From Candidatus Poribacteria bacterium (GTDB lineage: Bacteria; Poribacteria; WGA-4E; JAJDTR01), in assembly GCA_022827055.1 (NCBI GenBank), contig JAJDTR010000088.1:9043-73042 (forward strand): a DNA stretch of 64,000 nucleotides. Direction: 5' to 3'. Shown here piece after piece: positions 1,579 to 63,099 of this stretch; the first letter of the stretch is position 1, and every line of letters begins with the position of its first letter. The notes below the pieces were generated by a model. That model did no database searches. It was not told the origin of the DNA and saw nothing but the letters and a program-made list of their open reading frames with translations. The position numbers and the translations under genes are program-made.

Positions 1579-2691
1579 ATGCAAACAGTGTCCCCAGTAA
1601 ATTACAGCATGTTTTTGATGCCGGTTCACAATCCGGCGAAACCGTTAGCCCAATGTTTCGATGAGGATCTGGAATTTGCCGTCCAATGCAACGACCTCGG
1701 TTTCACCGATTTCTGGGTCGGCGAACATCATACTTCAACCATCGAGAACATCGTGATGCCGGAGATTTTCCTCGGGAAAGTGCTTGGCTTAACCGACAAG
1801 ATGCGAATTGGCGCCGCTCCTGTCTGTTTGCAGTATCATCACCCTATGCATGTTGCCAACCGGCTTGCGTTTCTCGATCACTTCTCGCACGGACGTTTGA
1901 ATGTCTGCTTGGGTCCGGGCGCGATTCCAACCGACAACGAACTCTACGGTATAGATCCAAGCGAGGTAGGCGCTCGCATCTCCGAATCCATCAACATGAT
2001 CATGGACATCTGGTCCGGCGACCCGCCCTACGATATTCAAGGGAATTTCTGGTCAATCTCTCAAAAGACCGTCGATCCTGAATTCGGTATGGGAGTTTTG
2101 CATAAACCCCTTCAACAGCCGCACCCGCCAATTTTTGTGCCGTGCATGTCTCCCAACTCGCGGGGTCTTCAGGCTGCCGCAAAGCGCGGATTTCGTCCGA
2201 TAAGTCATCACATGAATCATCCCGATGTTCTCGCGAACCAATGGCAGGGATATGCCGAGGGTGCGGCGATGGGGGGACGCGAAGCGGATCCGAGTGACTG
2301 GTGTGTGGCGCGAAACATCTTCGTGGCAGATTCAACGGAAGAGGCGCGTCAAATTGCCCGGGAGAACTCGCTCGGAAGGTGCATTCAGTACATACGTGAC
2401 TTTACGCTCCGCTACGCGCCGACAGGTCTCCTCATCTGGAAACGCAACGAGGAGCAGACCGACGACGAGTGCAATTTGGATTACTTCATGAATGAGGTAA
2501 TTATCGCCGGGGATCCGGAATCGGTGACACAGCAACTATTGGATCTTCGCGAGCAGATTGGCGCTTTCGGGACGCTGGTCGCGGTCGCCCATGATTGGGA
2601 CAATCAAGAGCTTTGGGATAGGAGTTTCGAGCTGTTTGCCAACGAGGTTATGCCTGCATTTAATCGCGCTATCGGCGCAGAAGCCAAGTGA
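1579..2691 (+). CDS. Luciferase-like (LLM class) flavin-dependent oxidoreductase
   Basis: GFTDFWVGEHH motif and LLM-like architecture. GGAGGA ribosome-binding site 10 nt upstream of the ATG at 1579, so I prefer this start. The six-frame ORF begins at 1516. Confidence 0.7.
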   Translation: MQTVSPVNYSMFLMPVHNPAKPLAQCFDEDLEFAVQCNDLGFTDFWVGEHHTSTIENIVMPEIFLGKVLGLTDKMRIGAAPVCLQYHHPMHVANRLAFLDHFSHGRLNVCLGPGAIPTDNELYGIDPSEVGARISESINMIMDIWSGDPPYDIQGNFWSISQKTVDPEFGMGVLHKPLQQPHPPIFVPCMSPNSRGLQAAAKRGFRPISHHMNHPDVLANQWQGYAEGAAMGGREADPSDWCVARNIFVADSTEEARQIARENSLGRCIQYIRDFTLRYAPTGLLIWKRNEEQTDDECNLDYFMNEVIIAGDPESVTQQLLDLREQIGAFGTLVAVAHDWDNQELWDRSFELFANEVMPAFNRAIGAEAK

Positions 2692-2775
2692 AATGCGACG
2701 GCCTGCAGGAGCGACTTCCCGGTCGCGAGTGCAACTCGCTCCTACGAAAGGCGATCGGTCAATACATAACTCGCC

Positions 2776-3675
2776 TTAGGTATTGCTAGAGACAAACTCC
2801 CTGGCTTCGGCAACCTCTTCCTCAGTGCCGTGCCGAACTTCCAACACTTTCAATACATCGGCGGGGAGTTCCGTGAACACGTCATCAAAGTCTACGTCGC
2901 CGAAACTGGGCGGGTGATATTCCTCAAGGTCTTTGAGGTCGTGGACGTTGACACCGATGAGATGGTCTTTGTACGCTTCTAGCCAGCGGTTGGACCAGCA
3001 AAGCCCGATACGTTCTTGCAAGATGGCGTGACCGACATCATGCCAGTACCGCATGTTGCTGCCGGCAAAGGCGTCGAAGAACATCTCGACCTCATCAAAA
3101 TTTGGGATTTGATAGTAGCGCGGTCGATTCTCAATGGCGAGGTAGAGATCCATCCGTAAAGCGAGTTCATTGAGTTCATCCAAGCTGAATAGAACCGCGT
3201 CCTGATGTTTCGCCTGCTTTCGTTCCCTCCAATCCATCGCCTCCGACACTTTGTCACTGAACGCCTCGAACTCGCGCTCTCCGTATTCGTAGAAATCATA
3301 CATCAGATAGGAGCGGTCATACGTATCCACCTCGCCGAGGTGGAGCACCACGATTGGGATTTCAAGGTCGGCAGCCATCTCCATCGTCCGCACCGTCCAG
3401 CGTACCGCCTGTTTTCGTTCGGATATGTCGAGGCTGGAAAGGTGAATCGGGTCGCTTTCGGAATCGGATTGTGGATGGTCGGGCAAAATGGGGCAAAAAT
3501 TGTGAATGGAGCAGGGCTTGGTTCGTCCCAAATAGGGCTTAAGCTGCTCAATCTGATCGCGCGTCAGATGCCGACTCAGTTCGACCGCATTGAAGCCCAA
3601 ATCGTTAAGCTCATCAATCAGTGCCGCACCGTCAGGTTGCTTCAGCGCGTTCCACATCGTCGAGATGGCAATCAT
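2776..3675 (-). CDS. Sugar phosphate isomerase/epimerase (xylose-isomerase-like TIM barrel)
   Basis: 299 aa. FNAVEL..., HLGE and ENRP...YWHDVGHA motifs typical of the AP-endonuclease-2 / xylose-isomerase-like TIM-barrel family. Confidence 0.65.
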   Translation of the reverse strand: MIAISTMWNALKQPDGAALIDELNDLGFNAVELSRHLTRDQIEQLKPYLGRTKPCSIHNFCPILPDHPQSDSESDPIHLSSLDISERKQAVRWTVRTMEMAADLEIPIVVLHLGEVDTYDRSYLMYDFYEYGEREFEAFSDKVSEAMDWRERKQAKHQDAVLFSLDELNELALRMDLYLAIENRPRYYQIPNFDEVEMFFDAFAGSNMRYWHDVGHAILQERIGLCWSNRWLEAYKDHLIGVNVHDLKDLEEYHPPSFGDVDFDDVFTELPADVLKVLEVRHGTEEEVAEAREFVSSNT

Positions 3676-25321: not shown

Positions 25322-25560
25322 GGGATCTTTTCTCCTGAACAGTGTGGTTTTGAAAGGGATTCTATCTCTTGATACTAGGGGAAACTTGAGTCCACAACAC
25401 ATCCTAAGTATACAGGTTAATGAAATCTTTGTCAACAGTTTTTCTCTGAGGTGCAGGGGCAATCTCGTCTGATGCCAAACACGATCTACGCAATAAACAG
25501 AAATGATAATTATCTACGGTGATTTCATGCCGCCGGGTACTCGCAGGGAACGACGAATAA

Positions 25561-25662
25561 TCTCTGTGGGAACTCCATCGCACAGGATTCACTATCGCAG
25601 GATTAGCTATGAACTCTATGGGAATTCTATCGCGGTCATTATTCATTCGCTTGATCCTACAG
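25561..25662. repeat. Dispersed repeat family A (CTATCGC / TCGCTTGATC element), copy 1
   Basis: Shares TCTATGGGARYYCTATCGCGG...TCGCTTGATCC with the five other copies. Confidence 0.6.
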
Positions 25663-25877
25663 TCTGAGGTGACTGCCCCGTCCTTCGAGTCATGCATCCT
25701 TCCATGTCCCTCTGGCGGTGATATTGAATTTGCTTGACAGTCCTACCCCTCTTCTCTATAATGCAGATTCGGGTATAAGAGTAAAATCCGGCACGGTCAA
25801 CGATCCTATGAAACTTCATGCGTCCCGCACAGTTAACTCCTCATGCGGTGAACAAAGGCAGTTTACGGCACACGGAG

Positions 25878-26005
25878 GATCTCTATCGCGTTAAGATCTC
25901 TATCGCGCTCGCTATCCACTCGCTTGATCCTATCCGGTCACTTGATCACTCGCTATTCGCTCGCTTGATCTATTCGCTCGTTCGATCCTTATTCAGTCGC
26001 TTGAT
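25878..26005. repeat. Dispersed repeat family A, copy 2 (internally reiterated TCGCTTGATC x4)
   Basis: ctctatcgcg x2 then cactcgcttgatcc / tcgctcgcttgatc / gtcgcttgat sub-repeats. Confidence 0.6.
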
Positions 26006-26073
26006 ACTGCTGCTTTGAAACTATGTCATATACTCTTAGGAAGCAGACTGTAAACCTCGGGAGGTAATGACTC

Positions 26074-29201: not shown

Positions 29202-30290
29202 ATGGTTGATGAAGTACGGCGGGAGATAGAAAGAATACGAGAATATATATCAAACGAACGGTTAAGCCAGTTTGATGAAGCTAACACAAAAGCAACCGCC
29301 ATCGAGCCGATTCTGCGCGCACTTGGTTGGGACGTGGCCGACCCCGATGAAGTGAGGCGCGAATTTTCTGTGCGCGCCAGACCGAATGCTCGCCCGGTAG
29401 ACTATCTGTTGTTTTGCGACGACACGCCTAACGTCATCGTTGAAGCGAAAAGGGGCAATCAGTCGTTAGAACGACATCAGGAGCAACTTCAGGATTATGT
29501 CGGTTTCGCACTTTCCGATAATGTTCAAATCGCGGTACTTACCAACGGCGCAGCGTGGTGGTATTATCTGCCCATCCGGGCTGCAAGTTGGGAGCGGAGA
29601 AGAGTCGCGACTGTAGAACTCAGTCAACAAGATAGTAGAGATGTTGCTCAAACATTGGTTAATCTCCTTGGTAAAGAAAATGTCAAATCTGGAAGAGCCA
29701 TTCAAAACGCTGAGAGACATCAGATTTCAGACACCTTACCTAAGATATGGAATCAGCTAATAGCGCAGACTGACAGTTCGATTGTGAATCTCCTTATTGA
29801 ACAAATCCATGGGTTGTGCGTGCGTGAGCCGGATAGGAACGAAGTAGAGCAGTTTCTCTCCGGGCATCTCGAACAGATACAAATAACGCCCCTACCGAGC
29901 ACTCCTGATTCGGTGCCTCCGGTAGAGCCGCATCCCTCGCCGGAACCAAGTCCTTCAGGTTCCGTGACGGGCAAAAAACCAGTTGCATTCATATTTAACG
30001 GAAGCAGATATGAGGTTACATCATGGAGGGCAATGTTAATCAGGCTATGTGAGATAGTTTATTCCGCTCACAGGAATCGCTTTGAGGATGTATTGAGTCT
30101 CAAGGGAAAAACCAAACCTCCCTTTTCAAGAAATGCTGGTGGCATGGCCTCCCCAGTACAAATTAACAGCACAGGAATCTTTGTTGAGACCCATGGCGCC
30201 GCCCAAGCCCTTGTGAAGCGTGCAACAAGGCTAATCACACGCTTTGGATACGGCGAAAACGACCTGTTATTCGAGACTCAGACACCATGA
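29202..30290 (+). CDS. HsdR-N-like (type I restriction enzyme R N-terminal, PD-(D/E)XK) domain protein, paralog A
   Basis: 362 aa. N-terminal NEANTKATAIEPILRALGW...VDYLLF...VIVEAKR (D...EXK catalytic core), characteristic of the HSDR_N-type nuclease domain. C-terminal ~200 aa has no recognised motif. Stop overlaps (ATGA) the start of a response-regulator 5' remnant. Confidence 0.65.
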   Translation: MVDEVRREIERIREYISNERLSQFDEANTKATAIEPILRALGWDVADPDEVRREFSVRARPNARPVDYLLFCDDTPNVIVEAKRGNQSLERHQEQLQDYVGFALSDNVQIAVLTNGAAWWYYLPIRAASWERRRVATVELSQQDSRDVAQTLVNLLGKENVKSGRAIQNAERHQISDTLPKIWNQLIAQTDSSIVNLLIEQIHGLCVREPDRNEVEQFLSGHLEQIQITPLPSTPDSVPPVEPHPSPEPSPSGSVTGKKPVAFIFNGSRYEVTSWRAMLIRLCEIVYSAHRNRFEDVLSLKGKTKPPFSRNAGGMASPVQINSTGIFVETHGAAQALVKRATRLITRFGYGENDLLFETQTP

Positions 30291-30545
30291 AACCAAGCAT
30301 TCTAGTAATTGACGACGAAATCAGCATCTACAAATCCCTACAAGGCGTGTTGGATGACGAGGGTTACACCGTCCAACCGCTCTAAGCAACGGAGAGGGGG
30401 TTTGCCCCTCGCTAATGAGCACATCGATCTTGTCTTCTTGGATATCCCCATGCCCGGTGGGATGGACGGGATCGAAACACCCAAGCGGATGAAACAGATG
30501 TCACCCGACACAGAAGCGCAGGTACATGGGGTTGAACATACGTAA
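30287..30545 (+). pseudogene. Remnant of the 5' ~260 bp of the NtrC-like response-regulator gene (frameshifted receiver-domain fragment)
   Basis: MKPSILVIDDEISIYKSLQGVLDDEGYTVQ then HIDLVFLDIPMPGGMDGIETPKRMKQMS in another frame. Roughly 80-85% nt identity by eye to 33133-33390. Confidence 0.75.
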
Positions 30546-30557
30546 CAGGGTTTAAGA

Positions 30558-31622
30558 ATGTGTGAACAAGTTTTGAATGTAATTGAAAGATGGCAGGCAG
30601 ATGAACGTTTGACTGCATTTAGTGAAGCTAGGATATGTTCTGCGGTTATTGTACCGATATTACGCGGGTTAGGCTGGGATGTTGAGAACCCTGAAGAAGT
30701 GTGGGAACAGTATCCTGTGGAAGAGATAGGTACGGTGGATTATGCTTTGTTGATTGGCAATGAGCCGAAGGTCTTGGTTGAAGTAAAAAGAGGCGGTGAA
30801 TCGCTGGATAGACATCAAATTCAAATTCGGAATTATGCTCGTATAGGCGGGGTTAGCTTAGCAACACTAACCAATGGCGGAACTTGGCGGTTCTATTTGC
30901 CATTGCAGGGGGGAAGTTGGGAGCGGACGAGAGTTGGGGATGTCGTATTTCATGATCAGAACGCTGCAGAAATTACCCAAAGGCTGGTAGACCTTCTCAG
31001 TAGAGAAAATGTCAGCTCTGAGAACGCAATCCGAAATGCAGAAAATCTTCAAGAGAGGAATCGTATATTGAAGGCCTTGCCGAAGGCATGGGAGCAATTG
31101 GTGAATAACAAAATCCCAAATCTCCTCGCAGCACAAGCGCAGGAATTATGCGGACATAAGCCAAGTAGGAACGAAGTGGAGAAATTTCTTTCTGCACATC
31201 TCCAACAGATAACGTCAACTCTGGTTGCCACTGAATCTGTTGCATCTGATGAGCATATTGTAGTGTCCGAATCTGCTACTCAACTAAATCCTTCAGGCCG
31301 CTCGGTACGCACGACATGCCGAGCGTTTACATTTTGCGGAAACAGATATGAGGTTTCGTCGTGGCGCCACATGTTGGTCCGATTATGCGAGATATTGCAT
31401 GCCACTCACAGCGATCGGTTTGAGGAGGTATTGGGTCTCAAAGGAAGGAAACCTTACTTTTCAAAAAAACCTGGAGCTTTGGCAGAACCAAAATTAATCG
31501 AAGGAACAGACATTTTTGTTGAAACCGATGATTCGAAAAGAAACAGAAAGATTGCAGAGCTTCTGATTAGCCTCTTTGGATATAACAAAGGAGAACTATC
31601 TTATGAACCTCGCACATTATGA
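30558..31622 (+). CDS. HsdR-N-like PD-(D/E)XK domain protein, paralog B
   Basis: 354 aa. TAFSEARICSAVIVPILRGLGW...VDYALL...VLVEVKR core. Roughly 35-40% identity to paralog A over the full length. Its stop again overlaps (ATGA) the next response-regulator remnant. Confidence 0.65.
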   Translation: MCEQVLNVIERWQADERLTAFSEARICSAVIVPILRGLGWDVENPEEVWEQYPVEEIGTVDYALLIGNEPKVLVEVKRGGESLDRHQIQIRNYARIGGVSLATLTNGGTWRFYLPLQGGSWERTRVGDVVFHDQNAAEITQRLVDLLSRENVSSENAIRNAENLQERNRILKALPKAWEQLVNNKIPNLLAAQAQELCGHKPSRNEVEKFLSAHLQQITSTLVATESVASDEHIVVSESATQLNPSGRSVRTTCRAFTFCGNRYEVSSWRHMLVRLCEILHATHSDRFEEVLGLKGRKPYFSKKPGALAEPKLIEGTDIFVETDDSKRNRKIAELLISLFGYNKGELSYEPRTL

Positions 31623-31744
31623 CGCCACAACGCAAACCCAACATCTTAATCATTGACGGGAAACCGGCATTTTCTAAATCTTTACAAGATATCTTGGAGG
31701 ATAAGCTTGACACGGTATATTCCTCCATCGGCTGTCACGGTTAG
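31619..31744 (+). pseudogene. Second, more diverged remnant of the response-regulator 5' end (~125 bp)
   Basis: MTPQRKPNILIIDGKPAFSKSLQDILEDKLDTVY then a stop. Aligns to the RR N-terminus MSAKFKPNILIIDDEISICESLQGVLEDEGYTV. Confidence 0.65.
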
Positions 31745-32168
31745 TATCAACTCACTCATCATTGAACCAATTTTGCGGCAATTGGGTTGGAATACGAGTA
31801 ACCCTGATGAAGTGCGACCAGGATATTCTGTAAAACACAGGAGGGTGGACTACGCTTTATTAATCAACAATACAGCCAAGGTATTCATTGAAGTGATAAA
31901 AGGTGGTAAAGCGTTGCAAAGACGTCAAAAGCAACTTCTGCGTGACGTTTTTCATCATGGCGTTGAAATCACAGTACTCACCAACCTCAAAACGTGGTGG
32001 ATTTATCTGCCCATCCGAACAGTAAGTGGGGATCGGAGGAAAGTCGTAACTGTGAAACTTGATCGACGCGATAATACTGAGGCTGCCGAAACGATGGTTG
32101 ATCTCCTTAGCAAAGAAAATGTCAGATCTGGGAGAGCCATCCCAAACGCCGCTTGGCGAGGAAACTAG
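31745..32168 (+). pseudogene. Truncated HsdR-N-like paralog C (lacks N-terminal ~35 aa and the entire C-terminal half)
   Basis: Translation IIEPILRQLGW...VDYALL...FIEVIKGG...WWIYLPIR...SKENVRSGRAIPNA aligns to residues ~35-175 of paralog A and then stops. The six-frame ORF 31653-32168 is a chimera that reads RR remnant 2 out of frame. Confidence 0.6.
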
Positions 32169-32429: not shown

Positions 32430-32464
32430 ATCGCGAAACGACAAACTAAATGGTTAATTGCCTA

Positions 32465-32737
32465 AGAGCCTGTTTGAAAAATCCGTATTCAAGCTATTTT
32501 TGGTCATTTGAAGACACGTCTTTCGTGATTTCATGCCATGTACCTGTCGCCCCGCCGGGGCTTAGGTGTGCGGGGTTTCGGCATTTCTACACACCTTCAA
32601 GATCTCTATGGGAGTTCTATCGCGGTCACTAATCGTTCCCTTGATCACTCGCTATCCGCTCGTTTAATCCCCTCCGGGGCTATTAGAGGCTGGTGCGCGG
32701 TGCGCACCCTACAAACTGCACTTTTCAAACAGGCTCT
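32465..32737. mobile_element. MITE-like element, copy 1, with 16-bp terminal inverted repeats AGAGCCTGTTTGAAAA
   Basis: Terminal inverted repeats at 32465-32480 and 32722-32737. Internal palindromes GCCCCG-C-CGGGGC and GGTGCGC-GG-TGCGCACC. About 85% identical to copy 2 (61606-61807), except for a ~70-bp nested family-A insertion. Confidence 0.75.
32601..32670. repeat. Dispersed repeat family A, copy 3, nested inside MITE copy 1
   Basis: gatctctatgggagttctatcgcggtcactaatcgttcccttgatcactcgctatccgctcgtttaatcc. Absent from the otherwise collinear MITE copy 2. Closest to the copy at 58807. Confidence 0.7.
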
Positions 32738-32764
32738 AAGTGAATATGGCATAAGACAGCCTCA

Positions 32765-32837
32765 CATGGCACTCCTCTGGAGTGCAAAGCGGTCATACAG
32801 CCGCATTCTATCAACATGGCGCTCCGCTGGAGCGAAA
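32765..32837 (+). repeat. Dispersed repeat family B (double-hairpin element), copy 1
   Basis: catggcActccTctggagTg ...spacer (tcatacagccgcattctatcaa)... catggcgctccgctggagcgaaa. Stems CGCTCC/GGAGCG. Confidence 0.65.
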
Positions 32838-33016
32838 ATGTAAGCATTAAATACTTAGGAAAAGTACCACTAAATGGTTTGCTCGCTAAATAGATAGTGC
32901 TTATGCGGCGTTTGGCTGATTGTCTGAACTGCGATTTATGGGATTCTTGTTGATTGCCTTGATTGCTTGTGATGAGTTGACTAAATCGTTCCTTGAAGCT
33001 AGTAGGATTTAGGGAA

Positions 33017-33047
33017 GAAACCAAGTTTTCAAGAAAAAACTTGGTTT
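33017..33047. promoter_or_regulatory. Perfect 13-bp-stem hairpin / palindrome (GAAACCAAGTTTT-caaga-AAAACTTGGTTTC) 70 bp upstream of the response-regulator start, nested in outer inverted arms (AGGATTTAG / CTAAATCCT)
   Basis: Read directly. No T-run follows it on either strand, so it is more likely an operator or structured 5'-UTR than an intrinsic terminator. Flanked by ACCACTAAATG direct repeats at 32868 and 33076. Confidence 0.4.
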
Positions 33048-33117
33048 CGACGTGTACTAAATCCTTAGCGAGTAAACCACTAAATGCCTAAAATCCAAGT
33101 GAAATTACGAAAACAGT

Positions 33118-34479
33118 ATGAGTGCCAAATTCAAACCCAACATTTTAATCATTGACGACGAAATCAGCATTTGCGAGTCCCTGCAAGGCGTCTTGGAGGA
33201 CGAGGGTTACACCGTCCAAACCGCTCTCAGTGGCGAGGAGGGGATTCGTATCCTTGCGGGTGAGCACATCGACCTCGTTTTCTTGGACATCCTCATGCCC
33301 GGCGGAATGGATGGGATTGAAACGCTCAAGCGGATAAAGCAGATGTCATCCGACACGGAGGTGCTCATGATTTCCGGGCACGGAACGTTTGATCTCGCCC
33401 TGGAAGCCGGACAGTTGGGCGCTTCCGACTTCTTGGGGAAACCGCTTTCGCTCGACAGCATCCTGAGAAAGGTTGAGGCAATCAGCGCGAAGATTGCCAT
33501 CAGGCATTCCGACCGCGATGGGGACACGGATTCGCACGCACACGGCATTGTTGGAGATAGCTCGCAGATTCAGGAGATTCTACTGACAATTCGGCAGGTG
33601 GCGCCGACAAACGGACGGGTGCTCATCACCGGCGAGAGTGGCACAGGCAAGGAGCTCATCGCCCACGCCATTCACGCCTTCAGCGAGCGGACCGAGGCGC
33701 CGCTCGTCAAAGTCAATTGTGCGGCAATCCCCCAAGAGTTGATTGAATCGGAGCTATTTGGACATGAAGCAGGCTCGTTTACGGGAGCGTCTAAGAAGCG
33801 AGTCGGGAAGTTTGAGCAAGCGAATGGCGGGACGATATTCCTGGATGAAATTGGAGATATGAGCTTGTCAACGCAAGCCAAGGTGCTGCGGGTGTTGGAG
33901 GAACGGGAGTATGAGCGAGTCGGCGGGAATCAGACGCTGAGAACGGATGTCCGCGTCATCTCGGCGACGAACAAGCATCTTCCCGACGAAATTGAATCGG
34001 GCAATTTCCGCGAGGATCTTTACTACCGATTGAACGTCGTCCCGGTTCATGTCGCGCCGCTGCGAGAGCGGGTTGAGGATTTGCCGCTGCTTGTGGATTA
34101 TTTCCTGTCGCGATTCTGCCGCGAAAACGGGAAACAGACGATGTCCCTAAGCGATGCCGCCATGAACAATCTTCGGAGACGCGAGTGGCTGGGAAATGTG
34201 CGCGAGTTGCGCAACCTGATGGAAAGAGCCGTTATCCTGTGTCCGAATCAGACGATTGACGAAAGCGATTTATCGAAGGAAATACGACGAGATAGCACTG
34301 ACGGGGACAGTTCGGAGGCATCGCTCAAGGATGCGCGGCAGGAGTTTGAGAGCCGTTTTATTCTTAACTGCCTCAAGGGAAACAGTTGGAACATCACCGA
34401 AACGGCAAAACAACTCGGCATTGAGCGAACGCATCTGCATCGCAAAATGCGCCAGTATGAGATTGAGCGTGAACCGTAG
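33118..34479 (+). CDS. Sigma-54-dependent response regulator (NtrC/AtoC family: receiver + AAA+ sigma54 activator + Fis-type HTH)
   Basis: Receiver motifs DLVFLD and the phospho-acceptor Asp context. GESGTGKE Walker A. GAFTGA loop. C-terminal HTH (TAKQLGIERTHLHRKMRQ). Confidence 0.9.
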   Translation: MSAKFKPNILIIDDEISICESLQGVLEDEGYTVQTALSGEEGIRILAGEHIDLVFLDILMPGGMDGIETLKRIKQMSSDTEVLMISGHGTFDLALEAGQLGASDFLGKPLSLDSILRKVEAISAKIAIRHSDRDGDTDSHAHGIVGDSSQIQEILLTIRQVAPTNGRVLITGESGTGKELIAHAIHAFSERTEAPLVKVNCAAIPQELIESELFGHEAGSFTGASKKRVGKFEQANGGTIFLDEIGDMSLSTQAKVLRVLEEREYERVGGNQTLRTDVRVISATNKHLPDEIESGNFREDLYYRLNVVPVHVAPLRERVEDLPLLVDYFLSRFCRENGKQTMSLSDAAMNNLRRREWLGNVRELRNLMERAVILCPNQTIDESDLSKEIRRDSTDGDSSEASLKDARQEFESRFILNCLKGNSWNITETAKQLGIERTHLHRKMRQYEIEREP

Positions 34480-37021: not shown

Positions 37022-37672
37022 TTACGATTGAGATGGGGATTCTTGGTTGTCCCTGTTTCCGACTTCAGCCTGGAGCGCGTGAGAGACTATTTCAACCTTG
37101 GCAGTGAGTTTGCTTATGTCGGCGTGGGTTGCCTGAGCGTTAGCATGAATTGCCTCGGTGTTGGCATCAATCTTCTCGCCGAGTCTCACCATCTGAGACT
37201 GCATCAATCTCATATCTTCACGAATTTCATTGGTGATTGCCAGGGAAGTGGTAAATACTTTGTCAATCTGCTGTTGAAGATTAGAGGTTTCATTTTCAAT
37301 CTGCTTTTGAAGATTGGATATTTCGCTTCCAATCTGCTGTTGACGACCGGATGTTTCGTTTTCAATCTGCTTTTGAAGATTGGATGTTTCGTTTTCGATC
37401 TGCTTTTGAAGGATGGACGTTCCGCTTTCAATCTGCTTTTGAAGGATGGACGTTTCGTTTTCGATCTGCTTTTGAAGATTGGTTGTTACGCTTCCAATCT
37501 GCTCTTGACGACTTGATGCTTCTTTATCAATTTGCTTTTGGAGGTTGTCTGCTATCCTATTCATTTCTGCCCTACTGGGAATGCGCCATCCCAATAGAAA
37601 TATTGTGACCCCAAAGCCTAAAATAGTGACGATTGGCAACAGCTCTTTCATTGCACCCATCAATTCTACCAC
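37022..37672 (-). CDS. Membrane-anchored coiled-coil protein built from 11-residue tandem repeats (LQKQIENETSN)
   Basis: N-terminal TM helix. About 8.5 copies of an 11-aa heptad-like repeat. C-terminal apolipoprotein-like helices. Confidence 0.55.
   Translation of the reverse strand: MVELMGAMKELLPIVTILGFGVTIFLLGWRIPSRAEMNRIADNLQKQIDKEASSRQEQIGSVTTNLQKQIENETSILQKQIESGTSILQKQIENETSNLQKQIENETSGRQQQIGSEISNLQKQIENETSNLQQQIDKVFTTSLAITNEIREDMRLMQSQMVRLGEKIDANTEAIHANAQATHADISKLTAKVEIVSHALQAEVGNRDNQESPSQS
37262..37545 (-). repeat. 33-bp tandem repeat array (about 8.5 units) encoding the 11-aa LQKQIENETSx repeats
   Basis: Plus-strand unit TTCAATCTGCTTTTGAAGATTGGATGTTTCGTT, repeated head-to-tail with point variants. 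Confidence 0.8.
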
Positions 37673-44705: not shown

Positions 44706-45070
44706 TGGTGGGTTTCTTGGTAAAATGTAGTTGATTTTTGAAGGGCAAAAACGGGCAATCAATCGGACTCACGGTAGTACCTCGGTGATTTTTGCTCGTT
44801 TGTGGATATATACCCCAAGATTTGGTATGTGAAAATTTGAGATTGCACAAGTCTATTATGCGGAAGATAAGTTTCTATTTTCCATAGGTCCGCAAAGTCC
44901 CACGGATCGGGCACACTCAAGGGACGCCTGTTCAAAGACAGGACGATTACGGAGAAATCTGGATTATCCCCGTGTACAGGATGTAACCCTTCCAGTGCAC
45001 TCTAGCACATTGCGTCCAGCCGCTGCCCTTAATTGCTGTTAAGAAAGTCGTTATTGCTACGAAAGCCTAA

Positions 45071-45143
45071 CATGGCGCTCCGCTGGAGCGCAGAACGGTT
45101 ATGTATCTGCTTGCTATTGACAGGTCGCTCCGCTGGAGCGAAA
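45071..45143 (+). repeat. Dispersed repeat family B, copy 4
   Basis: catggcgctccgctggagcg-cagaacggttatgtatctgcttgctattgacag-gtcgctccgctggagcgaaa. Near-identical hairpins to copy 1 at 32765. Confidence 0.7.
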
Positions 45144-58806: not shown

Positions 58807-58895
58807 ATCTATGGGAGCCCTATCGCCTTCACTAATCGTTCAGTTGATCATTCGCTACTGGCTCACTTAATTTTTTCGCTCGTTTGATCCCACCC
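58807..58895. repeat. Dispersed repeat family A, copy 6
   Basis: atctatgggagccctatcgccttcactaatcgttcagttgatcattcgctactggctcacttaattttttcgctcgtttgatccc. Collinear with copy 3 at 32601. Confidence 0.65.
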
Positions 58896-61415: not shown

Positions 61416-61605
61416 GTGGTCAGTGACTAGTGAAATTCCTAACCCGTTCTATGGTGTAGTGGAGTAAGTATCTTGTGTCAGTTTCGTAAGCATCTAATGC
61501 ATATGGAGCCGACGCAGGAAACATGCTTTTCGCCGTGTAGGTCGGGCTTCTAGCCCGACGCTAGGAGACATTCCGCTTAGCCAAACCTAATCCGTGATAT
61601 CCTTT

Positions 61606-61807
61606 AGAGCCTGTTTGAAAATTCGGTAGCCAAGCCATTTTTAGTCATTTGAAGACACGTTTTTGTAATTTCCCGATATATACCTGTCGCCCCGCTGGGG
61701 CTTGGCGTACAGGGTTTCGGTATTTCTACATACCTTCCGCCCCTCCGGGGCTTTTAAGGCTGGTGCGCGGTGCGCACCTTACAAAATGTACTTTTCAAAC
61801 AGGTTCT
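61606..61807. mobile_element. MITE-like element, copy 2 (AGAGCCTGTTTGAAAA terminal inverted repeats, no nested insert)
   Basis: About 200 bp. Collinear with 32465-32737 minus the family-A insert. Lies directly upstream of the lipoprotein gene at 61908. Confidence 0.75.
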
Positions 61808-61907
61808 TAATCTTTTTAATCTACGATTCGCCCAGCTACAAAATTGCGCTTTCCTTATGCCATATTCTTTTTGTGAAAAAACCACTAATTCCCGAGGATT
61901 GTCAACC

Positions 61908-62909: not shown

Positions 62910-63099
62910 CCCCCTCAATCCAAGTTCTCGCCTCCGTTTGAGAATTTGCAGCGTGACTTCCGCCCACCGTTTCTTGTGAGTTACTTTTCTGACGAGCTCT
63001 AACATCTACATGTCCAAGTTCCCGCCTCCGATTCAGTCCCCCTAAATTTTTTCGCTAGACAAACCATGCCGTAACTGATACAATCGCTATTGAGTAAAA

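What the first reader, a model, noticed from the sequence alone, without database searches (positions are those of the whole stretch)
32465..32737. MITE-like element with 16-bp terminal inverted repeats, two copies; one carries a nested insertion of another repeat family
- The two copies are 32465-32737 and 61606-61807.
- Both start with AGAGCCTGTTTGAAAA and end with its reverse complement TTTTCAAACAGG(C/T)TCT.
- They share the core ...TTTTTGGTCATTTGAAGACACGT...TACCTGTCGCCCCGC(C/T)GGGGCTT...GGTGCGCGGTGCGCACC..., which has two internal GC-rich palindromes.
- Copy 1 contains an extra ~70 bp that is a family-A repeat unit (32601-32670), absent from copy 2.
- A nested insertion like this shows family A transposes or is copied into new sites, and it dates the two elements relative to each other.
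- The structured core could also encode a small RNA.
Basis: seen in the sequence. Interest (0 to 1): 0.6.

Follow-up and report, generated by a model that had tools for sequence, protein, structure and literature searches.

The report
IS5-type MITE in a Poribacteria genome
The two flagged stretches are copies of a small non-coding "hitch-hiker" transposon of sponge-symbiont Poribacteria that uses the end sequences of a widespread IS5-family insertion sequence. It is a new example of a well-known kind of element, and one copy has picked up a second, less well understood short repeat.

Summary
The window has two collinear copies, 88% identical outside a 70-nt insert. The true elements are 32466-32736 and 61607-61806.

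Each copy ends in the 15-nt inverted repeat GAGCCTGTTTGAAAA and is flanked by a 3-bp direct duplication, TAA for copy 1 and TTA for copy 2.

A strain whose adjacent SDR protein is 97% identical has a clean empty site for copy 2. Sixteen of about 22 copies in Candidatus Poribacteria genomes show matching TAA, TTA or TGA flanks.

The same terminal repeat bounds 850-932-bp IS5-family insertion sequences, each with one roughly 259-aa DDE transposase (NCBIfam IS5_3; ISRl2-like). It also bounds many unrelated short elements in other metagenomes.

So this is a MITE of the IS5 family, moved in trans by a transposase I did not find in Poribacteria.

Its interior is a mosaic:
- two CCCC-NNN-GGGG hairpins;
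- a GTAG-tagged REP palindrome. This palindrome also flanks a RAYT (TnpA_REP) gene in a poribacterial chromosome.

The 70-nt insert in copy 1 is real. It replaces a CG just 5' of a hairpin. The same two hairpin-adjacent sites are filled or empty independently of MITE lineage, at least five times. Its mechanism is unresolved.

I found no support for a small RNA.

The parts
32463..32465 (.). Left target-site duplication of copy 1 (TAA)
   Evidence: Direct repeat of 32737-32739. The same pattern is seen in 16 of about 22 family members.
32466..32736 (+). MITE copy 1, 271 bp including the nested 70-nt insert
   Evidence: Alignment to copy 2 and to poribacterial copies. It is 201/203 identical to the L083 copy once the insert is removed.
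32466..32480 (+). Left terminal inverted repeat GAGCCTGTTTGAAAA
   Evidence: The identical sequence ends IS5-family insertion sequences.
32550..32560 (+). Hairpin H1, CCCCGCCGGGG. Site 1 for family-A units in other copies lies just 5' of it.
32599..32668 (+). Nested family-A insert: AA + GATCTCTATGG + GAGTTCTATCGC head + two units ending TTGATC / TTTAAT. It replaces the CG seen in empty copies.
32669..32679 (+). Hairpin H2, CCCCTCCGGGG, directly 3' of the nested insert
32688..32712 (+). REP module GGCTGGTGCGCGGTGCGCACCCTAC. Its reverse strand reads GTAG followed by a palindrome.
   Evidence: The same module flanks a RAYT gene in L001.
32722..32736 (-). Right terminal inverted repeat, exact reverse complement of the left one
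32737..32739 (.). Right target-site duplication of copy 1 (TAA)
61604..61606 (.). Left target-site duplication of copy 2 (TTA)
   Evidence: The empty site in L215 has a single TTA.
61607..61806 (+). MITE copy 2, 200 bp, no nested insert. H1 at 61690-61700, H2 at 61740-61750, REP at 61758-61782 with tag TTAC. The right inverted repeat has one mismatch.
   Evidence: Short-read contigs L091 and L092 end inside it.
61807..61809 (.). Right target-site duplication of copy 2 (TTA)

Best explanation
Both stretches are copies of a non-autonomous DNA transposon (MITE) of Candidatus Poribacteria that carries the ends of an IS5-family insertion sequence of the ISRl2/IS1031-like kind.

**Proposed mechanism.** A DDE transposase encoded elsewhere binds the 15-nt inverted repeats GAGCCTGTTTGAAAA. 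It moves the 200-bp element into a T-W-A target and duplicates those 3 bp.

**Shown:**
- the inverted repeats;
- the 3-bp duplication;
- a clean empty site for copy 2;
- multi-copy spread across poribacterial genomes;
- identity of the ends with those of transposase-bearing IS5 elements.

**Inferred:** the trans-acting transposase in Poribacteria. I did not find it.

**Interior.** The interior is non-coding and mosaic. It holds two CCCC-NNN-GGGG hairpins and one GTAG-tagged REP palindrome. That palindrome belongs to a separate REP/RAYT system of the same genomes.

**Nested insert in copy 1.** After it arose, copy 1 acquired a 70-nt block of a third repeat family. The family consists of a GATCTCTATCGC head plus units ending CTTGATC. 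Units of this family repeatedly occupy positions in the loops of GC hairpins or just 5' of them. They replace 2-6 nt and have no inverted repeat or duplication of their own.

My preferred but unproven reading is a single-strand or hairpin-dependent copying or insertion process (HUH/RAYT-type, or template switching at hairpins). Unit number would then change by slippage.
For: **Terminal repeat and collinearity:**

**Family in Poribacteria:** the scan returned mostly Candidatus Poribacteria MAGs. There are about 20-25 full-length copies in 655 kb.

**Target-site duplication:** 16 of about 22 genuine inverted-repeat pairs have identical 3-bp flanks: TAA 9, TTA 6, TGA 1. They are direct repeats, not palindromic extensions of the inverted repeat.

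**Empty site:** L215 reads ...GATATCCT-TTA-ATCTTTTT.... The window has TTA[200 bp]TTA at the same place.

**The repeat breaks assemblies:** L091 and L092 end inside copy 2.

**Same ends on autonomous elements:**
- Twelve elements of 850-901 bp bounded by GAGCCTGTTTGAAAA (up to 2 mismatches allowed) carry a transposase homologue over most of its length; further partial homologues lie at contig ends.
- The L107 ORF matches Pfam DUF4096 + DDE_Tnp_1 and NCBIfam transpos_IS5_3 at 3.9e-67.
- A copy annotated as ISRl2 family in Rhizobium is 932 bp: TTA|GAGCCTGACCGAAAA...|TTA.
- The IS1031 group has a single ORF and a 3-nt target (PMC2516522).

**REP identity:**
- About 88% of roughly 140 such hairpins are followed by CTAC.
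- They flank a RAYT gene in L001. It matches PDB 4ER8 at 1.5e-34, NCBIfam REP_Tyr_transpos at 1.8e-53 and Pfam Y1_Tnp. Sequence.
- The GTAG-REP definition is from PMC3733652.

**Nested insert:**
- L083 is 201/203 identical to copy 1 but empty.
- Every filled copy has an empty copy as its nearest backbone relative.
- Family-A units lie in REP loops.
- Array length differs between strains whose adjacent SDR protein is 97% identical.
Against: - No transposase with these ends was found in the window or in the 655 kb of poribacterial DNA held. The two IS5-family elements seen there (L055, L052) have different ends.
- Six of about 22 poribacterial copies, and most of the 850-900-bp insertion sequences, have T-N-A on both sides but a different middle base. 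This needs secondary explanations such as recombination between copies or mutation.
- There is no clean empty site for copy 1.
- The family-A insert removes 2 nt and has no transposon hallmarks. Its mobility mechanism is conjecture, and recombination between MITE copies could mimic independent gains.
Confidence: 0.85

Rival explanations
1. The element is moved by the RAYT tyrosine (HUH) transposase as a REPIN-like unit, not by a DDE transposase.
For: It contains a GTAG-type REP. A right-end fragment of the element (REP plus inverted repeat) lies immediately upstream of the RAYT start codon in L001. Some RAYT-like genes are known to be flanked by long inverted repeats (PMC3733652).
Against: It makes a 3-bp target-site duplication on clean insertion. 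By established knowledge of IS200/IS605-type Y1 transposases, these insert without duplicating the target. The inverted repeat is identical to that of DDE-encoding IS5 elements. The inverted repeat beside RAYT faces away from the gene, and no partner lies on the other side.
Confidence: 0.05
2. It is a conserved small-RNA gene or cis-regulatory RNA that merely has complementary ends.
For: It folds more stably than shuffles: z = -4.6 for copy 2 and -3.6 for copy 1. The hairpins are conserved. Both window copies lie between same-strand genes.
Against: - No Rfam match.
- The other strand is equally stable, z = -5.1, as expected for inverted-repeat DNA.
- Only about one or two compensatory changes in 18 copies.
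- No promoter-like or terminator-like site within or next to either copy.
- It occurs at unrelated loci, in both orientations, and is absent from the orthologous site of a close strain.
Confidence: 0.03
3. It is a static mosaic of intergenic repeats (BIME/NIME-like) built by recombination, and the inverted ends are incidental.
For: The interior modules (H1, H2, REP, family A) also occur alone or in other combinations without the inverted repeats. The spacer holding copy 1 is a pile-up of repeats, 688 nt against 74 nt in L220.
Against: The whole 200-bp unit is present or absent as one block with a duplicated TTA. Its boundaries are sharp across about 20 copies. The ends match those of autonomous insertion sequences.
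Confidence: 0.03
4. The 70-nt segment of copy 1 is ancestral, and copy 2 (with other 'empty' copies) lost it by deletion.
For: The same two-head, two-unit architecture sits at the same site in L022 and L036.
Against: - Most copies are empty at that site: 12 of the 18 aligned, the other six carrying a family-A unit there.
- The empty L083 copy is 99% identical to copy 1.
- Empty copies uniformly read CG at the junction. That would require repeated, identical, precise deletions.
- The unit exists independently all over the genomes.
Confidence: 0.05

Closest known systems
MITEs derived from IS5-family insertion sequences of the ISRl2 / IS1031-like group
   Same: Ends begin with GAG. The inverted repeat of about 15 nt is identical to that of 850-901-bp elements carrying one DDE transposase of about 259 aa, and 12/15 identical to an ISRl2-family copy. 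Target-site duplication is 3 bp, T-W-A. Size is about 200 bp, with no ORF and multiple copies.
   Different: No autonomous partner has been located in Poribacteria. The interior is unrelated to any IS and is built from host repeat modules, including a REP. Assignment to the IS1031 rather than the IS427 subgroup rests on my memory of ISfinder plus one literature sentence.
REP / REPIN-RAYT systems (GTAG-tagged REPs; Di Nocera 2013, PMC3733652)
   Same: The internal module is a 7-bp-stem GC palindrome with an adjacent GTAG tag. It is highly repeated and flanks a RAYT gene.
   Different: The whole flagged element is not a REP or REPIN, because it has inverted repeats and a target-site duplication. 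Here a REP rides inside a DDE-type MITE. REPs also form 35-bp direct tandem arrays and often carry a 34-nt unit in the loop.
Mosaic intergenic repeats: E. coli BIMEs, Neisseria NIMEs / Correia elements, pneumococcal BOX elements (from my own knowledge)
   Same: Short modules combine in variable number and order in intergenic DNA. Sub-unit copy number is variable, as with boxB. The modules are hairpin-rich.
   Different: The sequences are unrelated and the phylum is different. Here one mosaic is packaged between IS5-type ends and demonstrably inserts as a unit.
REP-loop-targeting insertion sequences IS1397 / ISKpn1 (from my own knowledge)
   Same: Family-A units, like those insertion sequences, are found inside the loops of REP palindromes.
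   Different: Family A is 34-70 nt, non-coding, has no inverted repeat or duplication, and removes 2-6 nt at the junction.

Membership tests
MITE (non-autonomous DDE transposon) | Terminal inverted repeats | tested here: met
   15-nt GAGCCTGTTTGAAAA. Exact in copy 1; one mismatch in copy 2.
MITE (non-autonomous DDE transposon) | Target-site duplication of fixed length | tested here: met
   3 bp, TAA or TTA. Seen in 16 of about 22 copies. The empty site has one TTA.
MITE (non-autonomous DDE transposon) | Small, non-coding, multi-copy | tested here: met
   160-320 bp. Only spurious ORFs of 60 aa or less. About 20-25 copies in 655 kb of poribacterial loci.
MITE (non-autonomous DDE transposon) | Insertion polymorphism between related genomes | tested here: met
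   Copy 2 is absent from L215, whose SDR protein is 97% identical. Inconclusive for copy 1.
IS5 family, ISRl2 / IS1031-like group | Ends shared with an insertion sequence that encodes an IS5-family DDE transposase | tested here: met
   Twelve elements of 850-901 bp with the same inverted repeat. Pfam DUF4096 + DDE_Tnp_1. NF033580 at 3.9e-67. ISRl2-family copy with GAGCCTGACCGAAAA ends.
IS5 family, ISRl2 / IS1031-like group | 3-bp T-N-A target | tested here: met
   Literature: PMC2516522.
IS5 family, ISRl2 / IS1031-like group | Autonomous partner present in the same genome or lineage | tested here: not met
   None in the window or the 76 poribacterial loci.
GTAG-type REP (internal module only) | 20-40-bp GC-rich palindrome with an unpaired GTAG tag at one end | tested here: met
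   GTAG-GGTGCGC-ACC-GCGCACC. About 88% of roughly 140 copies are tagged. Copy 2 has GTAA instead.
GTAG-type REP (internal module only) | RAYT gene flanked by the same REPs (REPtron) | tested here: met
   L001 2654-3226, with REPs on both sides.
GTAG-type REP (internal module only) | High genome-wide copy number, mainly extragenic | not testable with these tools
   Only loci pre-selected for the motif are held. 75 of the 89 stretches returned are poribacterial, from eight MAGs.
Structured small RNA | Covariation supporting a strand-specific structure, or an Rfam match | tested here: not met

The most novel reading that the evidence does not exclude
The family-A unit is a GATCTCTATCGC head plus units ending CTTGATC, about 34 nt in its minimal form. 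It may be a previously undescribed kind of ultra-small mobile insert that targets GC hairpins.

It sits in REP loops and just 5' of CCCC-NNN-GGGG hairpins. The right junction is always ...TTGAT|C, and 2-6 nt are replaced. It has no inverted repeat or duplication, and it recurs at the same two MITE sites at least five times independently.

It could be spread by the RAYT/HUH enzyme or by hairpin-induced template switching. If so, REP hairpins in Poribacteria act as landing pads for a second parasite.
Probability: 0.25. Interest if true: 0.65.

Novelty: new member of a known kind. Interest (0 to 1): 0.35.

Why it matters
- It gives a firm annotation for a repeat that breaks short-read assemblies of sponge-symbiont genomes.
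- It shows recent transposition in Poribacteria: the insertion is polymorphic between strains whose adjacent SDR protein is 97% identical.
- It documents that one IS5-clade end sequence has given rise to many independent MITE families across environments.
- It exposes a REP/RAYT system and a layered repeat ecology in an uncultivated phylum: a REP inside a MITE, and a mini-repeat inside both REPs and MITEs. I found no paper in the held library describing this.
- The MITE itself is ordinary biology. The hairpin-seeking family-A unit is the part that might repay further work.

Tried and rejected
- **Rfam and tRNA scans.** Gathering and permissive Rfam scans and a tRNA scan found nothing relevant.
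- **Promoter and terminator scans** around both copies found nothing within or next to either element. The only hit was one terminator-like site inside the upstream HicB ORF, no more than shuffles give.
- **Search for the parent insertion sequence.**
  - No inverted-repeat pair more than 450 bp apart that encloses a transposase, in any poribacterial locus.
  - Unpaired inverted-repeat hits had no transposase next to them.
  - L052 holds an IS with an HTH_Tnp_4 transposase but ends ACATCTTTCCAAAATAG.
  - L055 holds a two-ORF IS5-family element with ends GGTTCTGTTGACATTT. Neither is the parent.
- **Empty site for copy 1.** Orthologues with 91-97% identical NtrC (L218-L220) have very different spacers, so no clean comparison was possible.
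- **Covariation.** The copies are too similar to be informative.
- **DnaA-box idea.** I considered that family-A units are DnaA-box-like (TTATCCAC) or GATC-rich titration sites. I dropped it because the CAC core is not conserved among units.
- **IS1031 paper.** The original paper (PMC208303) is not held.

Full report
**Observation**

The two stretches exist as described. They align collinearly.
- The 16-mer AGAGCCTGTTTGAAAA occurs only four times in the 64-kb window at up to 3 mismatches. The four form two inverted pairs. Shuffles give 0.55 matches on average.
- With the extra segment of copy 1 removed, the copies share 176 of 200 aligned bases.
- They share three GC hairpins: CCCCGCYGGGG, CCCCTCCGGGG and GGTGCGC-GGT-GCGCACC.
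- Copy 1 has 70 extra bases at 32599-32668. They match a dispersed family with members at about 25614, 25878-26010, 43009(-), 52505 and 58808.

**Host and family**

I scanned one genome per species for the 21-mer of the third hairpin. This returned 89 stretches, nearly all from Candidatus Poribacteria MAGs (sponge symbionts). BLAST and a profile search found about 20-25 full-length relatives of the flagged element in these loci, plus many fragments.

The multiple alignment has sharp boundaries: GAGCCTGTTTGAA...TTCAAACAGGCTC. Of about 22 genuine inverted-repeat pairs, 16 are flanked by identical trinucleotides: TAA/TAA 9, TTA/TTA 6, TGA/TGA 1. A left TAA goes with a right TAA, not with its complement TTA. 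The flank is therefore a direct target-site duplication and not part of the inverted repeat.

The window elements are therefore:
- copy 1 at 32466-32736, duplication TAA;
- copy 2 at 61607-61806, duplication TTA.

**Proof of insertion**

The SDR gene upstream of copy 2 has orthologues with 90-98% identical protein on long contigs.
- In L215 (97% identical protein, a 3.3-Mb contig) the site reads ...GTGATATCCT-TTA-ATCTTTTTAATC....
- The window reads ...GTGATATCCT-TTA-[200 bp]-TTA-ATCTTTTTAATC....

This is a textbook filled and empty pair. Two short-read contigs carrying the same SDR gene end inside the element, as expected for a multi-copy repeat.

For copy 1 no clean empty site was found. An orthologous locus (L220) has 74 nt between HicB and the NtrC-type regulator, where the window has 688 nt. 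The window spacer is a pile-up of several repeat types.

**Which transposon family**

I scanned metagenomes for TWAGAGCCTGTTTGAAWA.
- Twelve loci hold 850-901-bp elements bounded by this inverted repeat (up to 2 mismatches allowed), with T-N-A on both sides. Each holds one ORF of about 259 aa. These ORFs are 42-52% identical to the L107 ORF.
- The L107 ORF matches Pfam DUF4096 + DDE_Tnp_1 and NCBIfam IS5 family transposase NF033580 at 3.9e-67.
- In annotated plasmids its relatives include 'IS5-like element ISRl2 family transposase'. That copy is 932 bp and reads TTA|GAGCCTGACCGAAAA...TTTCGAGTCAGGCTC|TTA. A Nostoc relative reads TTA|GAGGGTGTTTATAAA...|TTA.
- A single ORF and a 3-nt target are features of the IS1031 group of the IS5 family (PMC2516522).
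- The same scan also returned dozens of unrelated 100-290-bp elements with these ends, mostly with matching TAA or TTA flanks. This IS clade therefore spawns MITEs repeatedly.

The flagged element is one such MITE. Its transposase must act in trans. I did not find it in the window or in 655 kb of poribacterial DNA. The two IS5-family elements seen there have other ends.

**Interior**

The third hairpin, read on the other strand, is GTAG-GGTGCGC-ACC-GCGCACC. That is a GTAG-tagged REP in the sense of Di Nocera et al. (PMC3733652).
- About 140 such hairpins lie in the held poribacterial loci, and about 88% carry the tag.
- In L001 they flank, in both orientations, a 191-aa gene. This gene matches E. 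coli TnpA_REP (PDB 4ER8) at 1.5e-34, with the HUH and tyrosine motifs aligned. It also matches NCBIfam REP-associated tyrosine transposase at 1.8e-53 and Pfam Y1_Tnp.

Poribacteria therefore have a REP/RAYT system, and the MITE carries one REP as cargo. A right-end fragment of the MITE lies just upstream of that RAYT gene. The 3-bp duplication and the IS5-type ends nevertheless argue that a DDE enzyme, not RAYT, moves the MITE.

**The nested insert**

In copy 1 the sequence ACACCTTC-CG-CCCCTCC of empty copies reads ACACCTTC-[70 nt]-CCCCTCC. The CG is replaced, and the insert has no inverted repeat or duplication. An empty copy in L083 is 201/203 identical to copy 1.

Family-A units occupy two fixed sites in the MITE. 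Each site lies directly 5' of a CCCC-NNN-GGGG hairpin. Every filled copy has an empty copy as its nearest backbone relative:
- w1 and L083, 98%;
- L059 and L025, 97%;
- L019 and w2, 95.5%;
- L018 and L025, 96%;
- L051 and L077, 93%.

This implies at least five independent gains or precise losses.

The same unit also sits inside REP loops: GGTGCGC-RGG[GATCTCTATCGC...CTTGAT]CGCACC. There are 11 strict cases. Ten of them hold a single 34-nt unit, and ten are in one orientation relative to the tag. The unit also sits inside another hairpin module. In one orthologous pair a REP-like hairpin is empty in L220 and filled in the window at about 25540-25660. Array length differs by 80 nt between the window and L215 at window position 58816.

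The mechanism is unknown. I favour a hairpin- or single-strand-dependent process, with slippage changing unit number.

**RNA idea**

- No Rfam match.
- Folding is more stable than shuffles on both strands: z = -4.6 and -5.1 for copy 2, -3.6 for copy 1. This is what inverted-repeat DNA gives.
- RNAalifold on 18 copies shows conserved hairpins but only one or two compensatory changes.
- No promoter-like or terminator-like sites within or next to either copy.
- Expression cannot be tested with these tools.

**Verdict**

- It is a new member of a known kind: an IS5-family (ISRl2/IS1031-like) MITE in Poribacteria.
- It is mosaic and carries a REP.
- It was recently active.
- It holds a nested copy of a hairpin-associated mini-repeat whose way of spreading is the only puzzling part.

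I found no paper in the held library that links Poribacteria with MITEs, REPs or RAYTs.

Noticed in passing
L001 2200-3960 (OZ244829.1, Candidatus Poribacteria chromosome): A REPtron. The RAYT/TnpA_REP gene (2654-3226) is flanked by GTAG-tagged REPs in both orientations. Several REPs carry a 34-nt family-A unit in the loop. A MITE right-end fragment lies directly upstream of the start codon.
   Followed up: yes
L061 1-590 and L078 (adjacent blocks of OZ240209.1): A long direct tandem array (more than 17 copies) of a 35-bp unit, AAAGGCTGGTGCGCGGTGCRCACCCTACAAGAACC. These are REPs arranged head to tail rather than as inverted pairs.
   Followed up: partly
window 25878-26010 (also 25560-25660): A family-A array lies in the 5' leader between a conserved TTGACA-17-TATAAT promoter (about 25727-25760) and the DHDPS gene. 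The leader is about 60 nt in L220 and L219 but about 300 nt in the window.
   Followed up: partly
window 58808-58890 versus L215 1041-1131: The family-A array differs by 80 nt (extra heads and units in L215) between two strains whose adjacent SDR protein is 97% identical. It behaves like a minisatellite.
   Followed up: partly
L215 3762-3970 (absent at window about 61417); L055 5190-6005: A second polymorphic MITE sits just after the SDR stop codon in L215. It has the ends (GGTTCTGTTGACATTT) of a two-ORF IS5-family element seen intact in L055. It also carries REP-like hairpins and a family-A unit. L091 has a 13-nt duplication at this site that may be a footprint.
   Followed up: partly
window 29202-32168 and 30290-30545: Three paralogous HSDR_N-domain genes and a fragment of the NtrC receiver domain (81-86% identical to 33133-33364) lie between the histidine kinase and its sigma-54 response regulator. 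Paralogue number varies among strains: one in L220, two in L218 and L219.
   Followed up: partly
window 32752-32837 and 45058-45143: Another two-copy repeat, directly next to MITE copy 1. It holds two hairpins of the type GGCRCTCCKCTGGAGYGC. Related TCCGCTGGAG hairpins often follow family-A units in other loci.
   Followed up: no
window 33002-33067: A palindrome, GAAACCAAGTTTTCAAGAAAAAACTTGGTTTC. The same family (GAAACCGAGTTTTGAAGAAAAAAACTCGGTTTC) recurs in L028, L067, L071, L218 and L219. It gave only chance-level miRNA-like Rfam hits.
   Followed up: no
window 62939-63033: A 94-nt segment absent from L215 and L214. It is bounded by an 18-nt direct repeat, CCAAGTTCYCGCCTCCG. It is either an insertion or a deletion between repeats.
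   Followed up: no
window 37227-37556: A 33-bp tandem repeat (seven or more units) inside a 227-aa ORF with no Pfam match. The window and the near-identical L216 differ in length by 33 nt across their alignment, possibly one repeat unit here.
   Followed up: no
L052 5050-6025 (JAPPIK010000029.1): A frameshifted insertion sequence with an HTH_Tnp_4 transposase and ends ACATCTTTCCAAAATAG. It is unrelated to the flagged MITE.
   Followed up: partly
L134, L136, L137, L139, L178, L188, L197, L199 (mostly human-gut metagenome contigs): A 160-bp MITE family with the same IS5-type left end (GAGCCTGTTTGAAAAATCATTCCC...) but a different interior. It occurs in several copies per contig.
   Followed up: no
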